A stretch of DNA of 64,000 nt from Eubacteriales bacterium (GCA_051867895.1 JBJDZH010000005.1:103487-167486), one strand, 5' to 3'. Shown: positions 15,923-50,565, numbered from the stretch's first letter. A program made the numbers and translations. Notes: a model not told the origin generated them from the sequence alone.

Positions 15923-16142
15923 GCTGCTGCCTGCTGTGTTCGTGATGCGTGAGTAATTAAACCCACAGATAACAAATGGAGCCCGGACTTCTCCTGCCGG
16001 TATGCAGACCTCCCCCGCGCCGCTCCTTTGACCGGCGCGGCGGACGCTGGGAGCACAAAACAGGAGAGAGGGCACCGCCCTTGCGAAAGCAGGGTTTCTA
16101 TCTTCTTGCGCACACGGCACGGCGGGTATTTTTGCCGGTACC

Positions 16143-20844: not shown

Positions 20845-21412
20845 GAAGGCGCGATACGGGGAACGGAACACAAGGGGGCTTTTTGAAAAAAGCCCCCTTT
20901 ACCCCCAAAAACTTTCATACGAAATACCCATCTAAGCACAGCGGAACCCACTCGCTACTCCTCCGGATACCGGAAAGCGCGCCAGAGTGCAGCGAAAATC
21001 GTCAGATCTCACTCCGCCCGCCCCGCTCGAAAAACACGTTCGCGCACGCGCTCCTTGTGTTTTTGATAAGGAGCGCCCCCATCTCCCCCCAGCCAAGGAG
21101 AGAGGGGTGCGGGGGAGATGAACTTCGGCGTATGAGATGGTCCTCTCCCCCGCATACGAGGCGTTCGTGATGAGACGCAGCGGCAAAAAAGCGCCACGAA
21201 GAGAACGCGCAGGGGATCCTTTTTCAAAAGGCTCCCCAAACCCCCGCAAAAACTTTCATACTGAAAAGCAGGGATATCGTATAGCTCAGCCAGTACGATA
21301 TCCCTGCTTTTGTCCGATAGTTTTTGAAGGGGGACTGTGCGACATTGCGCTCCGCGCAAGTCAGCGAGTTGTGCAAAGCGCAGCATGCGGAACTTTTGTC
21401 AAGAAGTTCTCC
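20845..21412 (+). repeat. Mosaic repeat cluster 6: forward core, then Z-A-B-P-B'-Q-A; overlaps the 3' end of the ROK gene
   Basis: Hairpin A at ~20872-20900. H1 at 21109-21153. P hairpin at 21264-21311. Q at ~21330-21380. The terminal A-type hairpin gcggaacttttgtcaagaagttctcccc (21387-21414) contains the ROK stop codon. Confidence 0.9.
21264..21311. terminator. P-module hairpin, a bidirectional intrinsic-terminator-like element
   Basis: aaaa-GCAGGGATATCGTA-tagctcagccag-TACGATATCCCTGC-tttt. Confidence 0.65.
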
Positions 21413-26883: not shown

Positions 26884-28854
26884 TCAGATATCCAGAAACT
26901 GTGCGTATTTTGCGTTTTTCGCGATGAAATCGCGCCGCGGCTCGACCTTATCCCCCATCAGAAGGGAGAAAATCTCGTCGCAGGCGGATGCATCCTCGAT
27001 CGTCACGAGCTTGAGCGTCCGCTTCTCCGGATCCATCGTCGTATCCCAGAGCTGATCCGCGTCCATCTCGCCGAGACCCTTGTACCGTTCCGCCTCGATG
27101 CCGGAGCCGCCGCCCAGCTCTGCGATACAGCGGTCGCGCTCCTCGTCCGAGAAGGCGTACAACTCCTTTTTGCCGCCCCGCCGGTACACCTTATACAGCG
27201 GCGGCATCGCCAGATATACATGCCCCGTCTCGATCAGCGGTTTCATGTGCCGGAAAAAGAACGTCAGAAGCAGAATCTGGATGTGCTCGCCGTCCACGTC
27301 CGCATCGCTCATGATGATGATCTTACCGTAGCGCAGCCGGGCGAGGTCGAAATCCTCACCGATGCCGCAGCCGAGCGCCTGGATGATCGGCGTCAGCGAT
27401 ACATTGGAGTATACCTTGTCGAGGCGGGATTTCTCCACATTCAAAACCTTGCCGCGCATCGGGAGGATCGCCTGGAACTTGCTGTCGCGCGCGTCCTTGG
27501 CGGAGCCGCCTGCGGAATCTCCCTCGACGAGGTACAGCTCCGTCAGATCGACCCGCTTTTCGTTGCAGTCTGCCAGCTTGCCCGGCAGGGTGGATACGGT
27601 GTTCAGAGAGCTTTTGCGCGCGCTCTCCCGCGCCCGTCTTGCCGCCTCGCGTACGACGAACGCCGTCACGGATTTATCGGTGATGGCGCGTCCGACGGCG
27701 GGGTTTTCCTCCAGGTATTCCGCCAGCTTTGAGGAGACGATGCTCTCGACGACGGTACGCACCTCGGAATTGCCCAGCTTCGCCTTTGTCTGCGACTCAA
27801 ACTGCGCGTCCGGCAGCTTGACGGAAACGACGGCGCACAGTCCCTCGCGCACGTCCTCGCCGGAAAGATTTTTATCCTTTTCCTTGAGGGCGCCGGTTTT
27901 GCGCGCGTAGTCGTTGATGACCTTGGTCAGCGCGCTCTTGAAGCCGGTCTCATGCGTGCCGCCGTCGATGGTCGCCATATTGTTGGCGAACGTCACGATG
28001 TTTTCGTTGTAGGAATCGTTGTACTGCATGGCGACCTCGGCGGTGATGTCGCCCTTTTCCGCCTTCATGTAGATGACCTCGGGGTGGATCGGCTCAACGC
28101 CCTTCGCCGCGTTCATGTGTTCGACAAAGGAGCGGATGCCGCCCTCGTAGCAGAGGTCGTCCTCGCGGGGGATCCTGTTGCCGTCCTCATCCTCGATCCT
28201 ATAAGCGGAACGCTCGTCGCGCAGCGTGATGCGGACGCCCGCGTTCAGGAACGCCTGCTCCCGCATACGCTTGAGCAGCGTGTCGTAGTCGAACTCGATC
28301 GACTCGCGGAAAATCTCCGCGTCCGGCTTGAAACGCACGGTCAGACCGTGCCGCTCGCCGCAGCTGCCGAGGCACGTAAACGGACGGGTAATCTCGCCGC
28401 GCTCCATGCGCAGCGTGTATTCCTTTCCGTCGTGGCAATTGTCCACCTCCATCCATTCGGACAGAGCGTTGACGACCGACGCGCCGACGCCGTGCAGACC
28501 GCCGGAAATTTTGTATCCGCCGCCGCCGAATTTTCCGCCGGCGTGCAATACCATAAAGACGACCTCAAGCGTCGGGCGGTTTTCCTCGGCGTTGAAGCCG
28601 GAGGGAACGCCCCGTCCGTTGTCCGCGACAGAGACGCTGCCGTCGTCGTGCAGAACGACATGAACGGTGTCGCACCGTCCCGCCATCGCCTCGTCGATGG
28701 AGTTATCGACGATCTCATATACGAGATGATGCAGCCCGCGCGCACTGGTCGTGCCGATATACATGCCGGGACGCTTGCGGACGGCGTCCAGCCCCTTGAG
28801 CACCTGTATTTGCTCGTCTTCGTAGATTCCCGTGATATCGCTTTGATTTGGCAT
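26884..28854 (-). CDS. gyrB: DNA gyrase subunit B
   Basis: 656 aa. LEAVRKRPGMYIG-type motif (LDAVRKRPGMYIGTT), GHKL ATPase, and Toprim EGDSAGG and PLRGK(V)LNV motifs. Confidence 0.97.
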   Translation of the reverse strand: MPNQSDITGIYEDEQIQVLKGLDAVRKRPGMYIGTTSARGLHHLVYEIVDNSIDEAMAGRCDTVHVVLHDDGSVSVADNGRGVPSGFNAEENRPTLEVVFMVLHAGGKFGGGGYKISGGLHGVGASVVNALSEWMEVDNCHDGKEYTLRMERGEITRPFTCLGSCGERHGLTVRFKPDAEIFRESIEFDYDTLLKRMREQAFLNAGVRITLRDERSAYRIEDEDGNRIPREDDLCYEGGIRSFVEHMNAAKGVEPIHPEVIYMKAEKGDITAEVAMQYNDSYNENIVTFANNMATIDGGTHETGFKSALTKVINDYARKTGALKEKDKNLSGEDVREGLCAVVSVKLPDAQFESQTKAKLGNSEVRTVVESIVSSKLAEYLEENPAVGRAITDKSVTAFVVREAARRARESARKSSLNTVSTLPGKLADCNEKRVDLTELYLVEGDSAGGSAKDARDSKFQAILPMRGKVLNVEKSRLDKVYSNVSLTPIIQALGCGIGEDFDLARLRYGKIIIMSDADVDGEHIQILLLTFFFRHMKPLIETGHVYLAMPPLYKVYRRGGKKELYAFSDEERDRCIAELGGGSGIEAERYKGLGEMDADQLWDTTMDPEKRTLKLVTIEDASACDEIFSLLMGDKVEPRRDFIAKNAKYAQFLDI

Positions 28855-28958: not shown

Positions 28959-29231
28959 TCATATACTCCCGCGCCCGCCGAGGGCGGACACGGACAGGTG
29001 CGAAAACACCACTGTCTCCGTGCGCGCACGCACTTTCTTTTTGCGGCGCGGCGGCGCGAGCAGCAGAAATGATTTCGGCAGATCCCGCCCCGCCATCACC
29101 GCGGCGCCCGCCTTTTCCGCGCGCCGCAGAAAGGACGCTGTGTCCGCCGTCGTGATCTTTCCATCGAGGTCAAAGATACCGACGATCTTTTCCGTGCGGA
29201 CGACCTCGCCCGCTCCCGCGTGCAGAAACAT
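28959..29231 (-). CDS. remB: DUF370 / RemB-like small protein
   Basis: 90 aa, in the conserved Firmicutes position just upstream of gyrB. The I(V)GIFDLD...T motif is typical of DUF370. Confidence 0.7.
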   Translation of the reverse strand: MFLHAGAGEVVRTEKIVGIFDLDGKITTADTASFLRRAEKAGAAVMAGRDLPKSFLLLAPPRRKKKVRARTETVVFSHLSVSALGGRGSI

Positions 29232-29246: not shown

Positions 29247-30443
29247 TTATCTGCCGTTCATGCGCACCGGCATCACATAATCGAGGAACACGTCCTGATC
29301 CGTGTCCTTTTCCGCTTCCGAAGTCTCTCCGGGGATGTAGGCGCGTGAGCCGCTGCCGCTTGCATCCTCGATCGTCACGCCCATCATGGGACTGTTCATC
29401 CGCAGACGCAACTGCACAGCAGAGTCAGGCGCATTCCGCAGCGCCTCCACCAGGTACCGGCAGTTGAAGCCGATCACCAGATCCGCCCCCGTCTTTGCGA
29501 CCGGCAGCTCATCGTAGATGGAGCCGCCCGCCGAAACGGACGATATCTTGAGCACGTTTCCCACAAATTCCAGCTTCACGTGTGCGCGCGTGTTGCCGCC
29601 GAGCTTATCCTCGGTGACCAGCGTCGCGCGTTCCAGCGATTCGCGCAGTGCCTCCGCCGCGACGAAGACCTCCGTCTCGTGCGTTTTCGGAAGCATGCGC
29701 TTATAATCGATGTATTCTCCCTCGATCAGGCGCGTGAAATAAACATATTCGCCCAATCGGAAAATGATGTGCTTGCGCGCCAGCGTCACTGTCACGTCGT
29801 CCTCGGTGTCCTTCATCATGCGCAGTACCTCGCCGAGCAGCCTCCCCGGCACGATGACGGACGCCTCCGGATTGTCCTCTCCGGGCAGACAGACATGCGA
29901 GATGGCGACACGGTTGGAGTCACAGCCGATAACAAGGAGCCGGTCGTTTTCGATGCGGAAGTAAGCGCCATTGAAAATGGCGCGCTGGTCATTCGCGGCG
30001 ACGGCATAGATCGTGCGCGTCACCACGTCGCGCAGAAGATGCTGCGGCATCGTGTAGTTGCGGTCGCCCGCGAGCAGAGGAAGCTGCGGGAAGTTTTCGC
30101 CGGGCGTCACGATGATTTCAAAGGAGCTTTTCCCCTGCGAGATCGTGGCGCGGCAGCGCTCGTCCACACGGATGCTGATTTTTCCCTCCGGCAGAGCGCG
30201 CACGATCTGGAGCAGGTTCTGCGCCTTGACGACGATCCCGCCCTCCTCCCCGATATCGCACGGGATGGAGGTGCGCATGCCCTTTTCCATATCATAGGCA
30301 GTGATGCGGCAGGTGCCCGGCTCCTCGCCGGGACACTCAAGCAGCACGCCTTCGATGGCGGAGGCGGTGTTTTTGATCGACGCGATTCCCGCGGCGGGCG
30401 TGACGGCGGCAATCAGTGTATCGCGGTCAAACGTTACGTTCAT
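29247..30443 (-). CDS. dnaN: DNA polymerase III beta sliding clamp
   Basis: 398 aa from MNVTFDRDTLIAAVTPAAGIAS, with a three-domain clamp pattern, downstream of dnaA/oriC. The track start at 30593 runs through the AT-rich DUE. The C-terminal region has an acidic insertion (GETSEAEKDTDQD). Confidence 0.9.
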   Translation of the reverse strand: MNVTFDRDTLIAAVTPAAGIASIKNTASAIEGVLLECPGEEPGTCRITAYDMEKGMRTSIPCDIGEEGGIVVKAQNLLQIVRALPEGKISIRVDERCRATISQGKSSFEIIVTPGENFPQLPLLAGDRNYTMPQHLLRDVVTRTIYAVAANDQRAIFNGAYFRIENDRLLVIGCDSNRVAISHVCLPGEDNPEASVIVPGRLLGEVLRMMKDTEDDVTVTLARKHIIFRLGEYVYFTRLIEGEYIDYKRMLPKTHETEVFVAAEALRESLERATLVTEDKLGGNTRAHVKLEFVGNVLKISSVSAGGSIYDELPVAKTGADLVIGFNCRYLVEALRNAPDSAVQLRLRMNSPMMGVTIEDASGSGSRAYIPGETSEAEKDTDQDVFLDYVMPVRMNGR

Positions 30444-30467
30444 TTCGGTGTCCTTTCGGTGTCTCGG

Positions 30468-30503
30468 AAATATAAATAGATAAATAAAAATATAATAAGT
30501 TTT
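30468..30503. other. AT-rich DNA unwinding element (DUE) of oriC
   Basis: aaatataaatagataaataaaaatataataagttt is a 36-bp block with only 3 G and no C, in otherwise GC-rich DNA. It lies between dnaN and the DnaA-box cluster. Confidence 0.75.
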
Positions 30504-30534
30504 CAGCAGCCGCAGCAGTAGGGGGTGTTGATTC

Positions 30535-30948
30535 TGTGGAAAAGCCTGAACGTCCCTGCGCGGCAGGCGTTTCTGTCGATTTTTCCGACGCACGCATCGT
30601 CCGGTTTTGTTTTGGTTTTCTGTGGAAGTGCGTGGGAAAGGCGGCGTTTGCGCGCGGTTCGGGAGCGCGGCGGAAAATTATCCACAGCAATCCAACAGGG
30701 GAGAGGAGAAAAGTTTTCCACAGAGCTGGACAGTTTCACGGAAAATGTCGGGAAAAGCGTGTTTTCCAACGGCTATGGAAGGCATTTTTTCCAAAAGGAA
30801 TTTTTCCCGTGCTGTCGGGATTTTCGGGATCATGAACGGTGAATTTCCACAGGCGGTGCGGAGTTTTCCACAGGAATATCAACAAGCTGTGGAAAACCCG
30901 GGGAGATGGTGTGGGGGAGCTCCGATGCGGGTGAAAAATTTATCCACA
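30535..30948. promoter_or_regulatory. oriC DnaA-box cluster (dnaA-dnaN intergenic)
   Basis: Perfect TTATCCACA at 30678-30686 and 30940-30948. TTTTCCACA at 30714-30722 and 30864-30872. Inverted TGTGGAAAA at 30535-30543 and 30888-30896. Weaker ATTTCCACA at 30843-30851 and TGTGGAAGT at 30621-30629. Confidence 0.85.
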
Positions 30949-30984
30949 TCGTGTCGCGGGGAAAACCCATAGTCAGGTGAGTCA

Positions 30985-31380
30985 CAAACGTCTTGTGTTA
31001 GGGGGGACTCGTGTTGAGGAGGAGTGGTGTATCTCAGACGCCTTGTATTGCGGGGGAGAGGACCATCTCAGGCGCCGAAGTTCCTCTCCCCTGCACCCCT
31101 CTCTCCTTGGCTGGGGGGTGAGGTGACATTTCGCTTTCCTCCATCAAAAAACACAGGGAGCGCGTGCGCGAACGTGTTTTTCGGGAGAGGCGGGCAGAGT
31201 GAATTCTGACAATTCCGGCTGCACGCTGCCGCACGGAATCCGGAGAGATAGCGAACAGGTTTCGCTGTACTTTGACCGTGTCAAAGTCCGAAAGTTTAAG
31301 GGGGCGTGGGGGATTTTTTCAAAAATCCCCCGCGTCGTTCCACCTGCATCCGTGTCTCCTACGGCGTCTCCCGCGTCCCG
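30985..31380 (-). repeat. Mosaic repeat cluster 7: a reverse-oriented full core between the dnaA stop and the oriC boxes
   Basis: Tail units at ~30985-31049. H1 at 31050-31094. Modules E/D/C follow. Hairpin A gggggattttttcaaaaatccccc at 31308-31331. Z' runs up to the dnaA stop (31383). Confidence 0.9.
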
Positions 31381-31382
31381 CT

Positions 31383-32807
31383 TTACCGCTTGATTTCGCG
31401 GCGGATGTCGCTGATTTCCGCGTCCAGCGCAGGGTCGGTCTTGAGCTGTTTTTCCACTGCCGTGATGTTGGAGTGTACCGTCGAGTGATCTCTGCCGAAC
31501 ATCGTTCCGATGGCGGGCAGAGACAAATCCGTCGACTGCCGGATGATGTACATCGCCAGATTGCGCGCGGTCTTGATGTCCTTTGTCCGCTTGGTGCCCA
31601 GAACGTCCTCGCTCGTCACGCCGCAGCGCTTCGCCACGGCGGCGATAATGCGGTCCGCCACTTCGCCGACCGGCTCCGTGTCCTGCTGAAACATCGGCAC
31701 CAGCGTCCGCACCAGATCCATGTCGATCTTCGCTCCGTCCAGAAGATGCGTCGCCGAGATCCGCTTGATGATTCCCTCCAGCTGCCGGATGTTGGAGTGC
31801 AGCTTCTCCGCTATATAGGCGAGCACGTCGTCACCGATGACCAGATTCATGCTCTCCGCCTTGTTTTTCAGAATCGCCAGACGGAGCTCGTAATCCGGCA
31901 GCTGGATGTCCGCGATCAGCCCCTGCTCCAGGCGCGAGCGGATGCGATCCTCCAGCGTCACCATCTCCTTAGGCGGTCGGTCCGACGTCAGAATGATCTG
32001 CTTGTGATCCCGGTACAGCGCGTTGAACGTGTGAAAGAACTCCTCCTGCGTCGATTCCTTGCCCGCAATGAACTGAATGTCGTCGATCAGCAGCATGTCC
32101 ACCTTGCGGTATTTTTCCCGGAACGCCGCGTTCGTCTGCCGTGAGATTGACTCGATCAGCTGATTGGTGAAGTCCTCGCCGCTGATGTAGATCGCGTTCA
32201 TGTCCGGCGAGCGCTCAAACAGCTTGTTTGTGATCGCGTACATCAGGTGCGTCTTACCCAGCCCCGACGGACCGTAGATGAACAGCGGATTGTACTTGGA
32301 CGCAGGCTGATTGGCGACGGCAAGCGCCGCCGCGTGCGCGAATTTGTTCGAGTTGCCCACGATGAAATTCGCAAAGGTGTAGTCGCTGTTGTAGGTGAGG
32401 CGCCTCTCCCCGCCGGAGGAAAAGCTCTTGTCCTGCGTGTCTCCGCCGGATGGCGCCGCATCCGGACCGTGCTGCTTTTTCAGCTCGGCGGCGCGCGTCA
32501 GAGGAGAGACAACGCGTCCGTCCCCCTCAAGCTTCCGCGGGGGCGGCGTTTCCACAATGAATTCGATGGTGGTGCAGCCGTCGATCACAGAAGCGGCGCA
32601 GTCCGCAAGCACGGAGGCGTATTTTTCCAGAATGGTTTTGCGCTTCAGGTCGTTTTCCACTGAGAAAACGACAGTATCCCCTTCTATATAGACGATCTTG
32701 ACGTTGGCGAACCAGAATTCGAGCGCCGTGGAGGAGAGCTCGCCCGTGTTCCGCAGAGCTTCCAGAATGGAGTCCCGGACGCGGTCGTAGTCGGAGGGAG
32801 AAAACAT
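31383..32807 (-). CDS. dnaA: Chromosomal replication initiator protein DnaA
   Basis: 474 aa from MFSPSDYDRVRDSILEALRN. AAA+ Walker A (GPSGLGKTHL), box VII, and the C-terminal DNA-binding helix (HSTV...). Upstream in-frame ATGs at 32888 and 32903 are possible alternatives; the start is uncertain because there is no strong SD. Confidence 0.93.
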   Translation of the reverse strand: MFSPSDYDRVRDSILEALRNTGELSSTALEFWFANVKIVYIEGDTVVFSVENDLKRKTILEKYASVLADCAASVIDGCTTIEFIVETPPPRKLEGDGRVVSPLTRAAELKKQHGPDAAPSGGDTQDKSFSSGGERRLTYNSDYTFANFIVGNSNKFAHAAALAVANQPASKYNPLFIYGPSGLGKTHLMYAITNKLFERSPDMNAIYISGEDFTNQLIESISRQTNAAFREKYRKVDMLLIDDIQFIAGKESTQEEFFHTFNALYRDHKQIILTSDRPPKEMVTLEDRIRSRLEQGLIADIQLPDYELRLAILKNKAESMNLVIGDDVLAYIAEKLHSNIRQLEGIIKRISATHLLDGAKIDMDLVRTLVPMFQQDTEPVGEVADRIIAAVAKRCGVTSEDVLGTKRTKDIKTARNLAMYIIRQSTDLSLPAIGTMFGRDHSTVHSNITAVEKQLKTDPALDAEISDIRREIKR

Positions 32808-32912
32808 ATGTGTGCTTTGCCGCGGCGGACGCGGCTCGTCCTTTCGTTTGGTTTTCGTATGTCTTTCTGCCGCGCGTTCCGCGTGCATGCCGCGAATACG
32901 CATACTGTGTAT

Positions 32913-32941
32913 ATTATAACACGATTTATGAAAAATTTCAA
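32913..32941 (-). promoter_or_regulatory. Sigma-A type promoter for dnaA
   Basis: The reverse strand reads TTGAAA (32941-32936), a 17-nt spacer, then TATAAT (32918-32913). A near-consensus DnaA box TTATCCAAA (reverse strand, 32991-32983) lies just upstream in an AT-rich stretch. Confidence 0.55.
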
Positions 32942-33007
32942 GTCGGAAGCAGGGGAATTATATATAAAGAAGATGGAATCAATTTGGATAAATTGACGGC
33001 TTCTGCT

Positions 33008-33420
33008 TCGCGCAGGGACGCGGACGCAGGAGGACGCTGCTGGGGAGGACGCAATGCAGGGGAATTTCTGCAAGAAGTTCCCCCACACCCCCTCAAGAGC
33101 TTTCACATACTAAATCCCCATCTAAGCAAAGCGGAACCACCCGCTATCTCTCCGGATTCCGTGCAGCGCGCCGGAGTACAGCGGAATCCGTCAGAATTCA
33201 CCCTGCCCTCCCCTTCCGAAAAACACGTTCGCGCCCGCGCTCCTTGTGTTTTTTGATGGAGGAACGCCAAACGTCATGCCTTTTCTCCCCTTCCCAGCCA
33301 AGGAGAGAGGGCTGCGGGGGAGAGGAACTTCGGCGTCTGAGATGGTCCTCTCCCCCGCAATACGAGGCGTATGATATGTTTTTTTCTCCATTGTCCGGCA
33401 AATGAAATTCACCTCATTTC
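33008..33420 (+). repeat. Mosaic repeat cluster 8: a forward full core between the divergent dnaA and rpmH promoters
   Basis: Z at 33008-33055. Hairpin A ggggaatttctgcaagaagttccccc at ~33058-33083. H1 at 33314-33358. Degenerate tail to ~33420. Confidence 0.9.
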
Positions 33421-33533
33421 TTCGAAAAATGGTATATTTTCTCCCCATGCGATACACGGAAAGCACAAACCGGGCAGCATGCCGCCAAAAGCTTTTTTTT
33501 AACGCTTCCGGAAAGAAAAATTCCCGAAATCCC

Positions 33534-33563
33534 TTGACAATTCCCGGCTGCGCCTATTATAAT
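33534..33563 (+). promoter_or_regulatory. Sigma-A type promoter for rpmH
   Basis: TTGACA (33534-33539), 18-nt spacer, TATAAT (33558-33563). Confidence 0.6.
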
Positions 33564-33610
33564 AATATGTGCTATGCGAACAAACCTCAAAATGTAAGGA
33601 GGGTGAAAAA

Positions 33611-33745
33611 ATGCTGAGAACCTACCAGCCGAAGAAGCGCCAGAGAAGCAAGGTACACGGCTTCCGTAAAAGAATGAAAACCGCCGACGGCAGAAAAGTC
33701 CTGAAGAGACGCCGCGCCAAGGGCAGAGTGCGTCTGACGCACTGA
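33611..33745 (+). CDS. rpmH: 50S ribosomal protein L34
   Basis: Too short for the ORF track. Translates to [44 protein letters not shown] (44 aa). AAGGAGG SD at ~33597-33603. Confidence 0.95.
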
Positions 33746-33868: not shown

Positions 33869-34270
33869 ATGAAATTTACCGCGATCCGCGAAAATCACCT
33901 GTTTGTCAAGGCGTACCGCGGCGGGCGGGCGGTGAAGACGAAAAGCTGCGCCGTCTATGTCCTGCGCGACCGTCAGGCGCGCCGCTTTATGCGGGCGCGG
34001 CCGGACAAACAGTATGTCAACCGCATCGGCATCTCCGCCTCAAAGAAGATCGGAGGCGCCGTCGAGCGGAACCGCGCGAAACGGGTTCTCCGGGAGGCGC
34101 TCCGTCTGATTATGGCGGAGGCGCCGCTGAAAACCGGATACCTTGTCGTCATAGCCGCGCGGGAGCCGTCGACGGTATGTAAAATGCAGGACGCAAAGCG
34201 TGACTTGCAGTATGCCCTTGCCCGGCTGGACATGTTTCCAAGCGCGCCGGGGGCGGATAAAACGGTATGA
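33869..34270 (+). CDS. rnpA: Ribonuclease P protein component
   Basis: 133 aa. Basic, with the RNR motif region ([18 protein letters not shown]). Follows rpmH. Confidence 0.9.
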
Positions 34271-35785: not shown

Positions 35786-37501
35786 ATGAAAAACGAAGTG
35801 ATCCTGACGGCCAAAACGGTCGAAGAAGCCATGAGACTGGCGCGCGCCCAGTACGGAAGCGCCGACAATGAGCTTTCCTTTGAGATTCTGGAGATGCCGA
35901 AGAAGGGATTTCTTGGCATCGGCGCCGCCCCGGCGAAGATCAAGGTGACGATCACCCGGGTGCTGGAGGATGTGGATCTGTCCGATCTCGTCTCCGAGAT
36001 CCGCAATATGAAGCTGACGACGGACCGCGACGGCGGAGAAGAAGAGCGCAAGCCGAAGCCGCAGCCAAAGCCTGCGCAGCCCGCTGCACAGCCGAAGGAG
36101 AAGCCGCAGCAAAAGTCTGCGCAGCCCGCCGCGCAGCAGCCGAAAGCACAGCAGCAAAAGCCTGCGCAGTCTGCTGCACAGCCGAAGGTACAGCAGCAAA
36201 AGTCTGCGCAGTCCGCCGCACAGCCGAAGGCACAGCCGCAGCAGAAGCCTGCACAGCCCACTGCACAGCAGCCGAAGGTACAGCAGCAAAAACCTGCGCA
36301 GCCCGCCGCACAGCCGAAGGCGCAGCCGCAGCAGAAGCCTGCACAGCCTGTCGTGCAGGCGGCGGGAACCGACCTGAATGAAAACGAGCTTCCGGCAGCA
36401 CTGCGCCGTCCGGCGCCCCGCCCCGCGGAGCAGAAAAAGAAGAAGCCGAAGAGCGCGCCGCGCACCCCGGACGGACGCGGCGGCGAAGAAAAGAAGCGGG
36501 ATCTTTTGTCCGCGGTCATGGAGATCCGGGAGACAGCGCCGCAGCCCAGAGCAGAGGCGGAGCCGCAGGAGACGGCACAGCCATCCGCGCCTCAGCCCGA
36601 GGTGACCGGGGAGCGGCTCGCCGAAACGGAGCCTGTTCCGGCGCCGTCCGTTCCGGCTCCGGCGGCGGAGGCCGAGCCGGAAGCGAAGCCGGAGTTTGTG
36701 ACGGTGGAGGAGATGGAGTACGCTCTCGCTTTCACGCAGAAGCTGCTGGACAATATGCATCTGGACGCGCACGCGGTTCCGGGCGGCGCGCCGGAAGGGC
36801 AGGAGGTTCCCGAGGGAATGACGGCGGCGCGCATCTGCGTAGTCGGCGAGGACACGGGTATTCTGATCGGGCATCACGGGGAGACGCTGGACGCCATCCA
36901 GTACCTGATGAATCTCTCTGCCAGCCGCAGAAGCGGCGCGGGCAAGCGCGAATTTGTGAAGATTCTGCTCGATATCGGCAATTACCGCGAGAAGCGGGAG
37001 GAGACGCTGCGCGCTCTTGCCCGGCGTATGTCGGCGCGGGCGATCCGTTACAAGCGGAATGTTGTACTTGAGCCGATGAATCCGTACGAGAGACGCATCA
37101 TCCATTCGGAGATTCACGGCATTGAAAATGTTTCGACTCATTCCGTCGGCAGCGACGAGAACCGCAAGATTGTGATTACCTACGAGGGAGAGGACCGCGT
37201 TCCGCGCGCACCGCGCGCGCAGAAGCCGGGCGACAGGCGCCGCCCGCCGCGCACTTCCGCCTCCTCTGCGGTCGAAAAGGAGAACGCCGCGGACAAGGTG
37301 GACAAGATGGAGCGGAAAGAGCGCCGTCCCAAGCCTGCCCGCGCCAAATCCATTGATGAGATACGCATTGATCTGAGCGAGGCGTCCAGCGAGACGTTTG
37401 GTTCTGTTCTGGTGGACGAGGGAGTGGAGACTGGAGACGATCCTATCGAAAAGATCGCCGCTGCGGAGGAAGCCGCGGAGGAAAACCTCCGCGAATTCTG
37501 A
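35786..37501 (+). CDS. khpB: KhpB/Jag RNA-binding protein (Jag_N-KH-R3H), greatly expanded by low-complexity inserts
   Basis: 571 aa from MKNEVILTAKTVEEAMRLA (Jag_N). KH region (ICVVGEDTGILIGHHGETLDAIQYL). R3H (EPMNPYERRIIHSEI). A ~100-aa A/Q/P/K repeat linker and an ~90-aa charged C-terminal extension. The track start at 35522 overlaps yidC. Confidence 0.88.
   Translation: MKNEVILTAKTVEEAMRLARAQYGSADNELSFEILEMPKKGFLGIGAAPAKIKVTITRVLEDVDLSDLVSEIRNMKLTTDRDGGEEERKPKPQPKPAQPAAQPKEKPQQKSAQPAAQQPKAQQQKPAQSAAQPKVQQQKSAQSAAQPKAQPQQKPAQPTAQQPKVQQQKPAQPAAQPKAQPQQKPAQPVVQAAGTDLNENELPAALRRPAPRPAEQKKKKPKSAPRTPDGRGGEEKKRDLLSAVMEIRETAPQPRAEAEPQETAQPSAPQPEVTGERLAETEPVPAPSVPAPAAEAEPEAKPEFVTVEEMEYALAFTQKLLDNMHLDAHAVPGGAPEGQEVPEGMTAARICVVGEDTGILIGHHGETLDAIQYLMNLSASRRSGAGKREFVKILLDIGNYREKREETLRALARRMSARAIRYKRNVVLEPMNPYERRIIHSEIHGIENVSTHSVGSDENRKIVITYEGEDRVPRAPRAQKPGDRRRPPRTSASSAVEKENAADKVDKMERKERRPKPARAKSIDEIRIDLSEASSETFGSVLVDEGVETGDDPIEKIAAAEEAAEENLREF
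36062..36360 (+). repeat. Intragenic tandem repeat, ~45-bp period x ~6.5, inside khpB
   Basis: The unit cctgcgcagcccgccgcacagccgaagg(t/c)acagc(a/c)gcaaaag recurs starting near 36071, 36116, 36161, 36203, 36248, 36293 and 36338. It encodes (K)PAQPAAQPKxQQQ repeats. Confidence 0.9.
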
Positions 37502-39974: not shown

Positions 39975-40795
39975 GAAAGCCAAGGAGAGAGGGTTGCGGG
40001 GGAGAGGAACTTCGGCGTCTGAGATGGTCCTCTCCCCCGCACCACGAAGTGGATGAGATGATATGCGGCAGTAAGGGAACGCAGGGGAACGGAACGCAAG
40101 GGGGGCTTTTTGAAAAAAGCCCCCCCTTGACCCCCAAAAACTTCCATACAAAATGCCCGCCAAAGCACAGCGAAATCCGCTCGCCATCCCTCCGGATGCG
40201 GTGCAGCGCGGCAGAGTGCAGCGGAACTCGTTAGAATTCACCCTGCCCGTCCTTCCCGAAAAACACGTTCGCGCCCGCGCTCCTTGTGTTTTTTGATGGA
40301 GGAATGCTAAATGCCACGTCTATCCCCGGGAGCCAAGGAGAGAGGGTTGCGGGGGAGAGGAACTTCGGCGTCTGAGATGGTCCTCTCCCCCGCATCATGA
40401 GGCGGATGAGATTCATCCATCTATAGTTTTTTCCGCATCACGAGGCGGATGAGATTCATCCATCATACAGGTTTTCCCGCAATCAGAGGCGTCTGTGACG
40501 CAAACGCGGGAATGCGCAGGGGGACGCATGGAAACGCCGCAGGAGCCTTTTGAAATAGAGTCCCCGCGAGGCTGCGCTATGTGTAGATCGACGACTTGCG
40601 CTGCACGCAATGTCGCATCCCAGTGCGAAAACTTTTGAGAAAAAACAGGGATATCGTACAGATTCAGCTATACGGTATCCCTGTTTTTCAGCATGAAAGT
40701 ATCTTGAGGGGGGGCGAGAATTGCGCTTTGCGCATTTCGGGCACTGGGAACTCTTTTCAAAGAGTCCCCCGCGCGTTTTCCTGCGTCTCCACGGT
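39975..40795 (+). repeat. Mosaic repeat cluster 10: a truncated E-F-G, a full forward core with reiterated tail units, then Q-B-P-B'-Q'-A-Z'
   Basis: H1 at 39996-40040 and 40349-40393. Hairpin A ggggggctttttgaaaaaagccccccc at ~40102-40128. Tail repeats (ca[ct]gaggcggatgagattcatcca x2) at 40394-40470. P hairpin at 40639-40688. A-type gggaactcttttcaaagagtccccc at ~40746-40770. Confidence 0.9.
40639..40688. terminator. P-module hairpin, a bidirectional terminator-like element between convergent genes
   Basis: aaaaaaa-CAGGGATATCGTA-cagattcagcta-TACGGTATCCCTG-ttttt. Confidence 0.65.
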
Positions 40796-43699: not shown

Positions 43700-44350
43700 G
43701 AAAAACTTTTTGTTTGAAGGGGAAGGGATGCTGGGGGAACTTTTTGCATAAAGTTTCCCCCAGTCCCCTTCCTAAAACTTTTGAGGGAAAAAAGGGATAT
43801 CGTACAGGCTGAGCTATACGATATCCCTGTTTTAGTATAAAAGTTTCTGGGGGTGCAGGGGACTCTTTTCAAAGAGTCCCCTGCGCGTTTTTTCCCGCGT
43901 TCCCTGCGCTTGCGTGGCATCTTACCCGCCAGAGGCGTGCGGGGAGAAAACATCTCATCCACCTCGTGTTGCGGGGGAGAGGACCATCTCAAACGCAGGA
44001 GGATTGCGGGGGAGAGGACCATCTCAGACGCCGAAGTTCCTCTCCCCCGCACCCCTCTCTCCTTGGCTGGGGAGGTGGGGACGCTCTTTATCAAAAAAAC
44101 AAGGAGCGCGGCATACAAAACACAGTGAGCGCGTGCGCGAACGTGTTTTTCGGGAGAGACGGACAGGGTGAGGTCTGACGGATTCCGCTGCACTCCGGCG
44201 CGCTGTACGGCATCCGGAGGGATAGAGAACAGATTCCGCTTGTGCTTATACGGGGATTCAGGTTGAAAGTTTTTGGGGGTCAAGGGGGCTTTTTTCAAAA
44301 AGCCCCCTTGTGTTCTCCCCCCGTCTCCCCTGCATCTGCGTTTCCGCGTG
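43700..44350 (-). repeat. Mosaic repeat cluster 11: B-A-B-P-B'-A, then a reverse-oriented full core with 2 tail units
   Basis: Hairpin A at ~43733-43761, 43855-43884 and ~44281-44310. P at 43788-43833. Tail units at 43938-44005. H1 at 44006-44050. Confidence 0.92.
43788..43833. terminator. P-module hairpin, terminator-like
   Basis: aaaaaa-GGGATATCGTA-caggctgagcta-TACGATATCCC-tgtttt. Confidence 0.65.
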
Positions 44351-46072: not shown

Positions 46073-46885
46073 ATGGGAGCAGATATCCGACGGCAGGACA
46101 TCCACGACGACCGGGACGTATGGGTCCACCGGAAAACAACGGCAGGAATGCAGATGCCGACGCACTGGCATACGCATTTTGAGATCCTGCTCGTGTATGA
46201 AGGTGACTGCCGGATCGCGGCGGGAGGGCGGGAATACAATCTGCGGGAGCCTTTTGTCGTTCTGTACCGCCCGTTTACGCCGCACGGTATGACGGTGTCG
46301 GGTACGTATACGCGGAGTATGGTAAATTTCGGCGCGCGGCAGAGGGCGTTGTTCTCCGAGAGGCTGTTTTCTCTTTCATTTTTGGATCGCGCGCCGCTTT
46401 TTCTTGTGCGCATACCGCCAAGCCGGCTTCCGGAGCTGGAAAAGCTGTTCTCCGCTCTGTTCGCCAACCGCGATGATTTCGCGTGCAGCCAGCTCTATCT
46501 GGCGCTGATCGTGAACTGGCTGCGGCTGGAGGAGGGAGACGCGGACGTTTTCACGGAAGCGGAGCCGTATGTGGAGACGGCGCTGCGCTATATGGGGGAA
46601 AATCTGTCGCAGCCGCTGGCGCTGGAGGAAGTGGCGCGGCACTTCGGCGTCGGACGGACAAAGCTGAACCGGGATCTGCGCGAGGCGGTCGGCATGACGT
46701 TCCGACCGTATCTGACAGAGCTGCGGCTGACGCGCGCAAGAGAAATGCTGCTCGACGGCTTCTCTGTGACCCGCACAGCCTTTGAGTGCGGATATTCCGG
46801 CGAATCCCATTTTATCTGCGCTTTCCACCGCCGCTGGGGCGTTACGCCCGGTGCAATGAAAAAACAGGGATATCGTACAGGCTGA
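46073..46885 (+). CDS. AraC-family transcriptional regulator
   Basis: 270 aa from MGADIRRQD (GAGGAGG SD). Cupin-like N-terminal half and C-terminal AraC HTH (FECGYSGESHFICAFHRRWGVTPG). The last 8 codons and the stop lie in the P hairpin. Confidence 0.85.
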   Translation: MGADIRRQDIHDDRDVWVHRKTTAGMQMPTHWHTHFEILLVYEGDCRIAAGGREYNLREPFVVLYRPFTPHGMTVSGTYTRSMVNFGARQRALFSERLFSLSFLDRAPLFLVRIPPSRLPELEKLFSALFANRDDFACSQLYLALIVNWLRLEEGDADVFTEAEPYVETALRYMGENLSQPLALEEVARHFGVGRTKLNRDLREAVGMTFRPYLTELRLTRAREMLLDGFSVTRTAFECGYSGESHFICAFHRRWGVTPGAMKKQGYRTG

Positions 46886-46907
46886 GCTATACGATATCCC
46901 TGTTTTT
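46859..46907. terminator. P-module hairpin, a bidirectional intrinsic terminator shared by convergent genes
   Basis: aaaaaa-CAGGGATATCGTA-caggctgagcta-TACGATATCCCTG-ttttt. The AraC stop TGA (46883-46885) lies in the loop. Confidence 0.75.
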
Positions 46908-47495
46908 GTATAAAAGATACTGGGGGTGGGGGGACTCTTGAAAAGAGTTCTCTGCACGTTTTCCCCGCGTTCCCTGTGCTTGCGCGGCATCTTACCCGCC
47001 AGAGGCGTGCGGGGAGAAAATATATCATCCACCGGAGGAATGAGGAAAGAAATCTCATTTTCCGGACTGTGGAGGAAAAACATATCAAACGCCTCGTGAT
47101 GCAGGGGAGAGGACCATCTCAAACGCAGAGGATTGCGGGGGAGAGGACCATCTCAGACGCCGAAGTTCCTCTCCCCCGCACCCCACTCTCCTTGGCTCTC
47201 GGGGAGATGGGGTGCGTTCCGAATCCAAAAACACAGTGATCGCGTGCGCGAACGTGTTTTTCGGGAGGGCTGGCAGGGTGAATCCTAACAGATTCGGCTG
47301 CACTCTGCCGCGCTGCACGGCATCCGGAGGGATAGCGGGCAGATTCCGCTGTGCTTATACGGGGATTCAGTATGAAAGTTTTTGGGGGTCAAGGGGGGCT
47401 TTTTTCAAAAAGCCCCCTTGCGTTCTCCTGCGCTTTTTCCTGCGTCGTTCTCCCCTGCATTGCGTTCTCCCCCGCATCCTTCTCCCCCGCGCCTG
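46908..47495 (-). repeat. Mosaic repeat cluster 12: B'-A, tail units, then a reverse-oriented full core
   Basis: A-type hairpin at ~46928-46950. Tail units at ~47020-47134. H1 at 47135-47179. Hairpin A ggggggcttttttcaaaaagccccc at ~47393-47417. Z' runs to ~47495. Confidence 0.9.
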
Positions 47496-47659
47496 TTGAG
47501 AAATGGCGGGGAACGTCCGTTTGGGAGCGTGCAGGATCATGATATTGCGTCGGAGCGGATGTTTGCGCACATATCTTGTGCCTTTTCCGCCCGATTTTTC
47601 CACAAAGGGAAGCTACAGTTTTCAACATCCTGTGGAAAACCGTGTGGAAAACCGCAGCG

Positions 47660-49237: not shown

Positions 49238-49265
49238 CGGACACTCCATCTCCCGTGCGGGAATA

Positions 49266-49764: not shown

Positions 49765-50565
49765 GCGGTGGGAATATGCAAGGGGGTGCAGAAGTTCCCC
49801 TGCATCTGCGTTTTCCCCCGTAGCGTTCCCTGTGTCGCGCACCTTACGTTCACGTGTCATCACAAACGCCTCGTGTTGCGGGGGAGAGGACCATCTCAAA
49901 CGCCGAAGTTCCTCTCCCCCGCAGCCCTCTCTCCTTGGCTGAGGGTGAGGTGGCATTTCGCTTTCCTCCATCAAAAAACACAAGGAGCGCGTGCGCGAAC
50001 GTGTTTTTCGGGATGGGCGGGCAGAGTGAGGTCTGACGGTTTCAGCTGCACTCTGCCTCGCTGCACGGTATCCGGAGGGATGGCGAACAGGTTTCGCTGT
50101 GCTTTGACGGGGACTTAGTCCGAAAGTTTAAGGGGGGCGTGGGGGATTTTTTCAAAAATCCCCCACGTCGTTCTATCTTGCGTCCCCCCACGACGTCCCC
50201 CGCGTCCGCGCCTCGTGTTGCGGGGGAGAGGACCATCTCAAACGCCGAAGTTCCTCTCCCCCGCAGCCCTCTCTCCTTGGCTGGCGGGGATGGGGGCGTT
50301 TGCGTCCATAATTACAAAATGCAGCGAGTGCGGCATCAAAAAACACAAGGAGCGCGGGCGCGAACGTGTTTTTGGGGATGGGCGGGCAGAGTGAGGTCTG
50401 ACGGTTTCCGCTGCACTCTGCCTCGCTGCACGGTATTCGGAGGGATGGCGAACGAATTTCGCTGTGCTTTGACGGGGACTTAGTCCGAAAGTTTAAGGGG
50501 GCGTGGGGGATTTTTTCAAAAATCCCCCGCGTCGTTCTCTTGCGTCCGTTCTCCTGCATCCGCGT
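49765..50565 (-). repeat. Mosaic repeat cluster 13: two tandem reverse-oriented full cores filling the nifS-rlmH spacer
   Basis: H1 at 49878-49922 and 50220-50264. Hairpin A gggggattttttcaaaaatccccc at 50141-50164 and 50505-50528. The copies are near-identical, with a ~22-bp indel in module E. An A-type hairpin lies at ~49785-49810. Confidence 0.92.

What the first reader, a model, noticed from the sequence alone, without database searches (positions are those of the whole stretch)
30468..31380. oriC mapped between dnaA and dnaN, with a repeat core wedged between dnaA and the DnaA boxes
Eight DnaA-box-like 9-mers lie in 30535-30948: two perfect TTATCCACA, four one-mismatch T(T)TTCCACA in both orientations, and two weaker ones. 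They are followed by a 36-bp AT-rich block (30468-30503) about 25 bp upstream of dnaN. This fits the Firmicutes arrangement with the DUE on the dnaN side.

Between the proximal box (30535-30543) and the AT block lies cag cag ccg cag cag tag (30504-30521). These are six consecutive NAG-type triplets, five with a central A, reminiscent of the DnaA-trio element described for Bacillus oriC (a weak, speculative match).

A complete 400-bp repeat core (30985-31380) occupies the remainder of the spacer and abuts the dnaA stop. Another (33008-33420) sits just upstream of the dnaA promoter region, which has only one near-consensus box (32983-32991). The repeats therefore tolerate, or prefer, positions immediately flanking the origin.
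Basis: partly seen in the sequence, partly recalled or inferred. Interest (0 to 1): 0.6.

Follow-up and report, generated by a model that had tools for sequence, protein, structure and literature searches.

The report
Replication origin between dnaA and dnaN
This is the chromosome's replication start site, of the ordinary Bacillus/Clostridium type, in an uncultured human-gut bacterium; the one unusual thing is that copies of a very abundant 400-bp repeat sit right against it on both sides of the dnaA gene.

Summary
dnaA (31383-32807, -) and dnaN (29247-30443, -) are confirmed. Their 939-bp spacer has the densest DnaA-box cluster in the window: six boxes within one mismatch in 414 bp, about 0.03 expected. 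It also has the window's most AT-rich 36-mer (30468-30503, 34/36 A/T).

The "speculative" DnaA-trio is a good match to the basal unwinding system (BUS). On the dnaA-sense strand it reads TTTTCCACA | GAATCAACA | CCCC | CTA CTG CTG CGG CTG CTG | AT-rich. The box-to-trio spacer is the canonical 13 bp. This block is nearly invariant in three related species (66-76% DnaA identity), while the rest of the spacer has diverged.

The origin appears monopartite: neither this genome nor four relatives has a box cluster upstream of dnaA.

The repeats are real (30985-31382 and 33008-33420) but show no preference for the origin. They fill 12 of the 13 intergenic gaps of at least 300 bp in the window. GC skew within 64 kb is inconclusive.

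Verdict: an ordinary, well-supported Firmicutes-type oriC prediction and a new member of a known kind. The repeat family itself, which matches no Rfam family, is the more unusual object.

The parts
29247..30443 (-). dnaN (DNA polymerase III beta clamp), 398 aa
   Evidence: Pfam DNA_pol3_beta N-terminal, central and C-terminal domains
30468..30503 (.). AT-rich block, the predicted DNA unwinding element (DUE)
   Evidence: 34/36 A/T, the most AT-rich 36-mer in 64 kb. An AT-rich block follows the trios at the same place in L001, L088 and L089.
30504..30521 (+). DnaA-trio array. The + strand reads 5'-CAG CAG CCG CAG CAG TAG-3', which is 3'-GAT GAC GAC GCC GAC GAC-5' read outward from the box.
   Evidence: Sequence. 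The BUS scan finds it with a 13-bp spacer. L001 and L089 have six uninterrupted trios (CTA CTG CTG CTA CTG CTG) at the same place.
30522..30525 (.). GC cluster (CCCC on the dnaA-sense strand) between the box pair and the trios
   Evidence: Invariant in all four species
30526..30534 (-). Downstream, weaker box of the tandem pair (GAATCAACA, 3 mismatches)
   Evidence: The homologous position in L088 is GTATCCACA (1 mismatch).
30535..30543 (-). BUS DnaA box TTTTCCACA, pointing toward the trios
   Evidence: invariant in four species
30621..30629 (-). Degenerate box ACTTCCACA
   Evidence: Aligns with a TTTTCCACA box of L001
30678..30686 (+). Perfect DnaA box TTATCCACA
   Evidence: Forms a pair 36 bp apart with 30714; the same 36-bp spacing is seen in L001.
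30714..30722 (+). DnaA box TTTTCCACA
   Evidence: aligned box in all four species
30787..30795 (+). Weak box TTTTCCAAA (2 mismatches)
30843..30851 (+). Weak box ATTTCCACA (2 mismatches)
30864..30896 (.). Distal box triplet: TTTTCCACA (30888-30896, -), ATATCAACA (30876-30884, +) and TTTTCCACA (30864-30872, +)
   Evidence: the forward-reverse-reverse arrangement is conserved in L001, L088 and L089
30940..30948 (+). Perfect DnaA box TTATCCACA, the outermost box, on the dnaA side
   Evidence: no counterpart in the relatives
30985..31382 (-). Interspersed repeat copy, about 400 bp. Its modules are a purine-rich leader, hairpin 1, a core, a MID hairpin, the END hairpin at 31046-31099, and tail units. 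It starts directly after the dnaA stop codon.
   Evidence: Short-read contigs of other strains break inside it. L087 has the same element start after its dnaA stop.
31383..32807 (-). dnaA, 474 aa
   Evidence: Pfam Bac_DnaA and Bac_DnaA_C; an identical protein is called on 5 independent metagenome contigs
32913..32941 (-). Predicted dnaA promoter (TTGAAA, 17-nt spacer, TATAAT, with an extended-10 TG)
   Evidence: 11/12 consensus match; conserved in L087
32983..32991 (-). Lone near-consensus box TTATCCAAA upstream of dnaA
   Evidence: not conserved in L087, where the position reads ATGTCCAAA
33008..33420 (+). Second repeat copy, inverted relative to the first. It lies between the divergent dnaA and rpmH promoters.
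   Evidence: END hairpin at 33309-33362
33534..33563 (+). Predicted rpmH promoter (TTGACA, 18-nt spacer, TATAAT)
   Evidence: 12/12 consensus match
33611..33745 (+). rpmH (ribosomal protein L34)
   Evidence: Pfam Ribosomal_L34

Best explanation
The segment 30468-30948 is the chromosomal replication origin of a high-GC, uncultured Clostridia-type bacterium whose repeat motif occurs in human-gut metagenomes. It is a single-part (monopartite) oriC in the dnaA-dnaN spacer.

Inferred mechanism, by homology with Bacillus subtilis:
1. DnaA-ATP binds the roughly nine double-stranded boxes.
2. The tandem pair TTTTCCACA/GAATCAACA (30526-30543) anchors a DnaA filament.
3. The filament grows across the 4-bp GC cluster onto one strand of the trio array (30504-30521, read 3'-GAT GAC GAC GCC GAC GAC-5').
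4. It stretches that strand and opens the adjacent 36-bp AT-rich block (30468-30503), where the helicase is loaded.

The 400-bp repeat next to dnaA (30985-31382) and its inverted partner upstream of dnaA (33008-33420) are not part of the origin machinery. They belong to a family that has colonised almost every long intergenic spacer of this genome, always oriented with local transcription. They are simply tolerated 36 bp outside the outermost DnaA box.

What is shown: gene identities, box enrichment, the AT block, module geometry, cross-species conservation, and the repeat distribution. What is inferred: DnaA binding, the unwinding site, monopartite function, and neutrality of the repeats.
For: - Gene context is rnpA-rpmH | dnaA-dnaN-(small ORF)-gyrB-...-gyrA.
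- Gene orientation diverges at the dnaA/rpmH spacer. All genes from gyrA to dnaA are on the - strand, and all from rpmH to 39.9 kb are on the + strand.
- Six boxes within 1 mismatch lie in 414 bp, against 4.76 expected in the whole 64 kb. This is the densest cluster in the window.
- The AT block is the window's extreme.
- The geometry meets the published BUS rules: box with at most 2 mismatches, second box with at most 4, spacer at most 16 bp with a mode of 13, at least 3 NAN trios, and a proximal GAT (for the rules; 27 and 71 for the scan).
- With an added AT-rich requirement and tighter limits, this is the only hit in the window on either strand. The looser AT-rich criterion gave none in 30 shuffles.
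- Orientation matches Bacillales and Clostridium origins scanned the same way: L028, L042, L014 and L021. It also matches the C. difficile trio 5'-CACCTACTACTATTACTACTATGA-3'.
- The block CTTTTCCACAG..ACACCCCCTACT.C.GC..CTGCT.AAA is invariant across the window, L001, L088 and L089, in an alignment with 57% mean column identity. The positions of the other boxes are conserved too.
- Upstream of dnaA there are 0-1 boxes in the window and in four relatives.
- Repeats occupy 8.8% of the window and 42% of its intergenic DNA, and sit in 12 of 13 gaps of at least 300 bp.
- Both dnaA-flanking copies are present in other strains at 97.4% identity. Their contigs end inside the repeats.
Against: - There is no experimental evidence.
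- GC skew inside the window does not single out this point. Cumulative-skew local minima lie at 28-30 kb and 34-36 kb (-0.32), but the lowest value is at 53-55 kb (-0.38).
- A GC3-skew regression gives a side effect of +0.026 +/- 0.023. The sign is right but it is not significant.
- Beyond about 10 kb on either side, many genes would be head-on to replication. This is unusual for Firmicutes.
- The fourth trio in this genome is CGG, which lacks the central A, so only three trios are uninterrupted.
- In C. difficile, in-vitro unwinding needed the upstream box cluster (oriC1) as well. That cluster is absent here.
- The BUS pattern alone is unspecific: it gives 21 candidate boxes in the window before the AT-rich requirement is added.
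Confidence: 0.88

Rival explanations
1. The box cluster only regulates dnaA/dnaN expression or titrates DnaA, as the DnaA-box clusters of B. subtilis do, and replication starts elsewhere on the chromosome.
For: Skew in the window is inconclusive. A second small box cluster at 47596-47651 shows that box clusters occur outside the origin. Many genes beyond about 10 kb would be head-on.
Against: A purely regulatory cluster would not need a box-pair/GC/trio/AT-block module with canonical 13-bp spacing, nor would that module be conserved nearly base for base across four species. The 47.6-kb cluster has no trios or AT block. In Firmicutes that have been examined, the origin lies at dnaA-dnaN.
Confidence: 0.05
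2. The origin is bipartite as in B. subtilis and C. difficile. The upstream half (rpmH-dnaA spacer) works through weak or non-canonical boxes, or was disrupted by the repeat insertion at 33008-33420.
For: Clostridial origins analysed so far have 9-19 relaxed boxes upstream of dnaA, and C. difficile needed both halves for unwinding in vitro. With the same relaxed criterion (TTWTNCACA, up to 1 mismatch), four sites exist in 32808-33610.
Against: The four relaxed sites are all mismatched, and about 1.3 would be expected by chance in a spacer of that length. The only box within one mismatch of TTATCCACA is not conserved in the closest relative. L001 and L089 have short upstream spacers with no repeat and still no boxes, so the absence predates the repeat and does not depend on it.
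Confidence: 0.07
3. The flanking repeats have a role at the origin. For example, they might terminate or insulate dnaA transcription before it enters oriC, or provide structured DNA or RNA that modulates initiation.
For: The element starts directly after the dnaA stop codon. It is kept there in other strains and in a species with 84% DnaA identity. L088 has a different repeat at the same place. The element carries several hairpins, and its END stem is maintained by compensatory changes.
Against: The same element fills 12 of 13 long intergenic gaps, regardless of neighbouring genes. L001 and L089 have the same conserved origin without it. No terminator-like site was called in the element on the dnaA-sense strand, and no promoter-like site was called in the box region between the element and dnaN. 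dnaN is therefore probably read through the element.
Confidence: 0.08

Closest known systems
Bacillus subtilis oriC, incC part, with the basal unwinding system (DnaA-boxes 6/7, DnaA-trios, AT-rich 27-mer) (Richardson 2016/2019; Pelliciari 2021, PMC8287927)
   Same: Location between dnaA and dnaN. Tandem box pair with the better box upstream. Short GC cluster. Trio array on the strand complementary to TTATCCACA. AT-rich DUE next to dnaN. 13-bp spacer.
   Different: Trios are mostly 3'-GAC-5' rather than 3'-GAT-5', and one is broken (GCC). The box consensus is TTTTCCACA. There is no incA/incB box cluster upstream of dnaA. A 400-bp repeat lies between dnaA and the boxes.
Clostridioides difficile oriC2, the experimentally located unwinding region (PMC7561715)
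   Same: The dnaA-dnaN spacer has 5-9 relaxed boxes, and a trio (CTA CTA CTA TTA CTA CTA) immediately precedes the DUE. The gene context rnpA-rpmH-dnaA-dnaN is the same.
   Different: C. difficile and the other clostridia analysed have a box-rich oriC1 (9-19 relaxed boxes) that was needed for unwinding in vitro. Here oriC1 is absent in the window and in four relatives.
Bacterial interspersed intergenic repeats (REP/BIME of E. coli, BOX of pneumococcus, bcr1 of the Bacillus cereus group, Correia elements). This comparison rests on general knowledge and was not tested here.
   Same: Non-coding, intergenic, modular or mosaic, hairpin-rich, many copies, and often oriented with transcription.
   Different: Much longer (about 350-400 bp) and much denser (17 END modules in 64 kb, 42% of intergenic DNA). 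No sequence match to Rfam, plasmids, phages or viral contigs. The END hairpin (purine-only 5' arm, 19-nt loop) is shared with other gut-metagenome elements that differ elsewhere.

Membership tests
Bacterial chromosomal origin (oriC), Firmicutes dnaA-dnaN type | Lies in the conserved rnpA-rpmH-dnaA-dnaN context | tested here: met
   Pfam hits for all four genes plus gyrB, gyrA, yidC and jag
Bacterial chromosomal origin (oriC), Firmicutes dnaA-dnaN type | Cluster of DnaA boxes well above chance | tested here: met
   6 boxes within 1 mismatch in 414 bp, against 4.76 expected per 64 kb; 0 of 100 shuffles reach the window total. Densest 500-bp window.
Bacterial chromosomal origin (oriC), Firmicutes dnaA-dnaN type | AT-rich DNA unwinding element next to the boxes | tested here: met
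   30468-30503 is 34/36 A/T, rank 1 in the window
Bacterial chromosomal origin (oriC), Firmicutes dnaA-dnaN type | Switch of GC skew or strand bias at the locus | tested here: inconclusive
   Cumulative-skew minima at 28-30 kb, 34-36 kb and 53-55 kb. GC3-skew side effect is +0.026 +/- 0.023. Gene orientation diverges at dnaA/rpmH but only for about 10 kb on each side. The whole chromosome is needed.
Bacterial chromosomal origin (oriC), Firmicutes dnaA-dnaN type | DnaA binding, DnaA-dependent unwinding, autonomous replication or a marker-frequency peak | not testable with these tools
   Needs experiments or read mapping to the full genome
Basal unwinding system (BUS; Pelliciari 2021) | DnaA box with at most 2 mismatches, and optionally a tandem second box with at most 4, the upstream box being the better one | tested here: met
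   TTTTCCACA (1 mismatch) is directly followed by GAATCAACA (3 mismatches). Rules read.
Basal unwinding system (BUS; Pelliciari 2021) | Spacer from the better box to the first trio at most 16 bp, with a mode of 13 | tested here: met
   13 bp: the 9-bp weak box plus CCCC
Basal unwinding system (BUS; Pelliciari 2021) | At least three consecutive 3'-NAN-5' trios, with GAT favoured next to the box | tested here: met
   GAT GAC GAC, then GCC, then GAC GAC. Relatives L001 and L089 have six uninterrupted trios.
Basal unwinding system (BUS; Pelliciari 2021) | Same strand and orientation as in characterised origins, followed by the AT-rich region | tested here: met
   The same scan on the dnaA-sense strand recovers the canonical modules of Peribacillus (L028), Siminovitchia (L042) and Clostridium (L014, L021). 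The C. difficile trio is quoted.
Basal unwinding system (BUS; Pelliciari 2021) | DnaA-ATP oligomer forms on the trio strand and separates the strands | not testable with these tools
   Needs a strand-separation or crosslinking assay with the cognate DnaA
Bipartite Firmicutes origin (oriC1 + oriC2) | Second DnaA-box cluster in the rpmH-dnaA spacer | tested here: not met
   One box within 1 mismatch in 803 bp here, and 0-1 in L087, L001, L088 and L089. There are four relaxed TTWTNCACA sites, all mismatched, against 9-19 in the clostridia analysed.
Known structured-RNA families (Rfam 15), for the flanking repeat | Match to a covariance model | tested here: not met
   No hit at gathering threshold in the window or in 9 metagenome loci. 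Nothing relevant at E-values up to 10 on 30400-33700.

The most novel reading that the evidence does not exclude
The two origin-flanking repeats belong to an undescribed family of structured, transcription-oriented intergenic elements. This family has saturated the genomes of a human-gut Clostridia lineage, making up 8.8% of this window. Its conserved END hairpin has a homopurine/homopyrimidine stem that covaries and a 19-nt loop, ACUUCGGCGUNUGAGAUGG. That hairpin is shared by otherwise different elements in many gut metagenome contigs, which would point to a common protein or RNA partner, either a mobilisation machinery or an RNA-level function. On this reading, the monopartite origin with repeats on both sides of dnaA would be one consequence of that invasion.
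Probability: 0.4. Interest if true: 0.6.

Novelty: new member of a known kind. Interest (0 to 1): 0.3.

Why it matters
- It gives a base-level origin annotation (boxes, trios, DUE) for an uncultured gut Clostridia lineage. This is useful for replication-rate (peak-to-trough) estimates and for genome orientation.
- It adds a natural test case for the BUS model: trios of mostly 3'-GAC-5' type, one broken trio, and no upstream box cluster, yet near-perfect conservation of the module across species.
- It shows that an essential origin tolerates a high-copy repeat 36 bp from its outermost box.
- It explains why dnaA of this species sits on isolated contigs of about 1.7 kb in short-read metagenome assemblies.

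Tried and rejected
- GC skew and GC3 skew inside the window were inconclusive.
- The BUS pattern alone is unspecific, with 21 candidates. It became unique only with the AT-rich requirement and with conservation.
- Rfam searches found no family for the repeat. These were a gathering-threshold search on the window, an E-value search on 30400-33700, and a gathering-threshold search on 9 metagenome loci.
- blastn of the repeat against plasmids and phages found no match. A viral-contig scan gave 0 matches.
- RNAalifold on the 15 full copies predicted conserved hairpins but almost no covariation within this genome, where the copies are too alike. Covariation appeared only when END modules from other species were added.
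- A literature search for the motif and for similar repeat reports found nothing relevant.
- I considered a group II intron, an omega or bridge RNA, a REP/RAYT element, an attC site and a small ORF for the repeat. None is supported. There is no Rfam hit, no GUGYG start or domain V, and the triplet at the position of a possible start codon varies between copies (ATG, GTG, TTG, CTG, GTA). These rejections rest on inspection and general knowledge, apart from the Rfam results.
- I looked for a copy of the window's own genome among species representatives. It is absent; the best match is 66% DnaA identity.

Full report
**Observation**

The region was read directly.

Pfam confirms the following genes:
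- DnaA at 31383-32807 (-).
- DnaN at 29247-30443 (-).
- GyrB at 26884-28854 (-).
- L34/rpmH at 33611-33745 (+).
- RnpA at 33869-34270 (+).
- GyrA, YidC and Jag/KhpB further out.

This is the classical Firmicutes origin neighbourhood. recF is missing between dnaN and gyrB.

**DnaA boxes**

TTATCCACA with up to one mismatch occurs 19 times in the window against 4.76 expected; none of 100 shuffles reaches 19. Six of the hits fall in 30535-30948:
- Two are perfect boxes.
- Four are TTTTCCACA, in both orientations.

Scaled to 414 bp, the expectation is about 0.03 (my arithmetic).

Three further two-mismatch boxes and one degenerate box lie in the same stretch. It is the densest 500-bp box window in the 64 kb.

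**AT block**

The block 30468-30503 is 34/36 A/T. It is the most AT-rich 36-mer in a window that averages about 60% G+C; the runner-up has 29/36.

The triplets cag cag ccg cag cag tag are exactly at 30504-30521.

**The trio element**

I read the published rules for the basal unwinding system (BUS) in Pelliciari et al. 2021. They are:
- a DnaA box with at most 2 mismatches;
- optionally a tandem second box with at most 4 mismatches, the upstream one usually the better;
- a spacer of at most 16 bp, with 13 bp the commonest;
- at least three 3'-NAN-5' trios, with GAT favoured next to the box.

On the dnaA-sense strand the window reads:

TTTTCCACA GAATCAACA CCCC CTA CTG CTG CGG CTG CTG AAAACTTATTATATTTTTATTTATC...

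This is a 1-mismatch box, a 3-mismatch box, a 4-bp GC cluster and a 13-bp spacer. The trios on the other strand read 3'-GAT GAC GAC GCC GAC GAC-5'. The AT block follows.

The same scan, run on the dnaA-sense strand downstream of dnaA, recovers the canonical modules in other Firmicutes:
- Peribacillus: TTATCCACA TATCCACAAGAC CTA CTA CTA TTA CTA CTA.
- Siminovitchia and Clostridium species.

The orientation is therefore the right one. It also matches the C. difficile trio quoted.

The bare BUS pattern is not specific; it gives 21 candidate boxes in the window. Requiring an AT-rich 30-mer after the trios leaves two. Tightening to one mismatch and a 10-14-bp spacer leaves only this one. Thirty composition-preserving shuffles scored with the AT-rich criterion gave none.

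**Conservation**

The window's own genome is not among the species representatives. The nearest is a Eubacteriales MAG, L001, with 66% DnaA identity.

A protein search found a graded series of relatives. I fetched three of them:
- L087 (84% DnaA identity).
- L088 (76%).
- L089 (74%).

The BUS modules in the relatives are:
- L001: TTTTCCACA GAATAAACA CCCC CTA CTG CTG CTA CTG CTG, then AT-rich.
- L089: TTTTCCACA GATCCAACA CCCC CTA CTG CTG CTA CTG CTG, then AT-rich.
- L088: TTTTCCACA GTATCCACA CCCC CTA CTA CGG CGA CTG CTA, then AT-rich.

In a four-species alignment with 57% mean column identity, this block is the longest invariant stretch. The other boxes keep their relative positions:
- a distal forward-reverse-reverse triplet;
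- two reverse boxes 36 bp apart;
- one forward box about 80 bp before the BUS box.

**Monopartite layout**

B. subtilis, C. difficile and the other clostridia analysed have a second box cluster upstream of dnaA. With the relaxed motif it holds 9-19 boxes. C. difficile needed that cluster for unwinding in vitro.

Here the 803-bp rpmH-dnaA spacer has one box within one mismatch. That box is not conserved in L087. L087, L001, L088 and L089 have 0-1 boxes.

With the relaxed motif there are four mismatched sites, against about 1.3 expected by chance.

L001 and L089 lack boxes even though their upstream spacers hold no repeat. The absence is therefore a lineage trait and was not caused by the insertion. 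I infer a single-part origin; this is not demonstrated.

**What could not be confirmed**

GC skew inside 64 kb is dominated by local gene strand:
- Cumulative-skew minima occur at 28-30 kb and 34-36 kb, but the lowest value is at 53-55 kb.
- A regression of third-position skew on gene strand and side of the origin gives +0.026 +/- 0.023 for side.

Gene orientation diverges at the dnaA/rpmH spacer, but only for about 10 kb on either side. The whole chromosome or coverage data are needed.

**The repeats**

The element next to dnaA runs from directly after the stop codon (31382) to about 30985. Its parts, in order, are:
- a purine-rich leader;
- a perfect hairpin (GGGGGATTTTTGAAAAAATCCCCC);
- a core;
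- a MID hairpin;
- a variable stretch;
- an END hairpin (31046-31099);
- degenerate tail units.

The outermost perfect DnaA box ends at 30948, 36 bp away.

The second copy (33008-33420) lies between the divergent dnaA and rpmH promoters, both predicted. It is in the opposite orientation.

The window holds 15 full copies and 17 END modules. They make up 8.8% of the window and 42% of its intergenic DNA. They sit in 12 of the 13 intergenic gaps of at least 300 bp; the thirteenth gap holds the 6S RNA gene. The origin flanks are therefore not preferred; they are merely not spared.

Fourteen of the 15 full copies point the same way as a neighbouring gene. This holds in 8 of 9 tandem-gene spacers. 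That alone explains why the two copies around the divergent dnaA/rpmH point are inverted relative to each other.

No promoter-like site was called in the box region between the element and dnaN, and no terminator-like site was called in the element on the dnaA-sense strand. dnaN is therefore probably transcribed through the element. This is an inference.

**Persistence across strains**

- Five short-read contigs from other samples encode the identical DnaA protein. They are 97.4-97.5% identical in DNA and end inside both flanking repeats.
- One contig, 100% identical to the window, starts inside the END module and runs through oriC and dnaN.
- L087 (84% DnaA identity) has the same element start right after its dnaA stop.
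- L088 has a different repeat at that place. L001 and L088 have their own repeat families at similar density.
- L001 and L089 have the conserved origin without any such insertion.

**Nature of the repeat (partly followed)**

Searches for a known identity were negative:
- No Rfam family.
- No plasmid, phage or viral-contig match.
- No paper holding the motif.

The loop of the END hairpin occurs in 110 metagenome stretches. Many are labelled human gut, and the match often lies at a contig end. Those loci share only the END module with the window's element.

Across 18 distinct versions, the 14-bp stem shows the following:
- It keeps a purine-only 5' arm.
- Ten of its 14 pairs show compensatory changes.
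- 95.9% of cells are paired, against 86% in shuffles (0 of 500 reach the observed value).
- At most 67% are paired when the partner strand is slid.

The loop's invariance is partly imposed by the search pattern.

A covariance model of the module finds 17 copies in the window and one each in L087 and L088. It finds none in about 80 other origin loci of Firmicutes and other phyla.

My best guess is a non-autonomous mobile or otherwise self-propagating structured element, tolerated only in the transcription-sense orientation. This guess is weakly supported.

**Verdict**

The finding is a correct and well-supported in-silico identification of an ordinary BUS-type Firmicutes origin. It has three minor peculiarities:
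- no upstream box cluster;
- GAC-type trios with one broken unit;
- a high-copy repeat abutting it on both sides of dnaA.

The origin is a new member of a known kind. The repeat family deserves its own study.

Noticed in passing
window, 17 sites (e.g. 31046-31099, 33309-33362, 49874-49927); L087 2910-2963; L088 12194-12247; metagenome loci L090-L169: The END module of the 400-bp repeat is a hairpin. It has a 14-bp stem with a purine-only 5' arm and a 19-nt loop, ACTTCGGCGTNTGAGATGG. The stems covary between species (10 of 14 pairs). The module occurs in many human-gut metagenome contigs inside otherwise unrelated elements. It has no Rfam or literature match.
   Followed up: partly
window 1-64000 (copies listed): The repeat family occupies 8.8% of the window and 42% of its intergenic DNA. 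It is co-oriented with a neighbouring gene in 14 of 15 full copies. Tandem pairs occur at 18.5/18.9 kb and 49.9/50.2 kb.
   Followed up: partly
window 47596-47651: A second DnaA-box cluster: three TTTTCCACA plus TTTTCAACA within 56 bp. It lies just downstream of a WG-repeat protein gene (47660-49249, -) and next to a repeat copy. It has no trios or AT block, so it is probably a titration or regulatory cluster.
   Followed up: partly
window 28959-29231: recF is absent from the usual dnaN-(yaaA)-recF-gyrB run. Only a 90-aa ORF without any Pfam hit lies between dnaN and gyrB. An ORF of the same size sits at the same place in L088 and L089.
   Followed up: no
window 15925-16132 (+): 6S (SsrS) RNA gene, the only Rfam hit at gathering threshold in the window. 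It fills the one long intergenic gap that has no repeat.
   Followed up: no
window 36016-36414: Tandem 42-48-bp repeats (7 units) inside the jag/khpB gene, in a region of strong AT skew. Probably a repetitive linker in the protein.
   Followed up: no
window 1862-1934, 21265-21337, 40642-40714, 43788-43860, 46861-46933: A second repeat family: a terminator-like hairpin, AAAACAGGGATATCGTA...TACGATATCCCTGTTTT. Each copy lies 100-230 bp beyond the 3' end of a main repeat copy, so some elements may be longer composite units. It is absent from the oriC-adjacent copy.
   Followed up: no
L001 930-1455, 4880-5390, 9320-9800, 12260-12790; L088 5717-6270, 7191-7744, 9445-9670: Related species carry their own, sequence-different intergenic repeat families of 450-550 bp, at a similar density of about one per 3 kb. 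L088 also has a copy directly after dnaA. L089 shows none in 17 kb.
   Followed up: partly
L081-L085 (contigs of 1.55-1.76 kb): In short-read metagenome assemblies, dnaA of this species sits alone on contigs that end inside the two flanking repeats. The repeats fragment assemblies of this lineage.
   Followed up: yes
L087 2554-3234: In the closest relative (84% DnaA identity), the element upstream of dnaA points toward dnaA, opposite to the window's copy. It is bracketed by a direct repeat of a GGCTCTTTTGAAAAAGAGCC hairpin. This suggests independent insertion or inversion.
   Followed up: no
L089 9488-9747: A 130-bp tandem duplication (96% identical) lies between dnaA and the box cluster in this relative. 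Each unit carries a box-like TTTTCTACA or TTTTCAACA.
   Followed up: no
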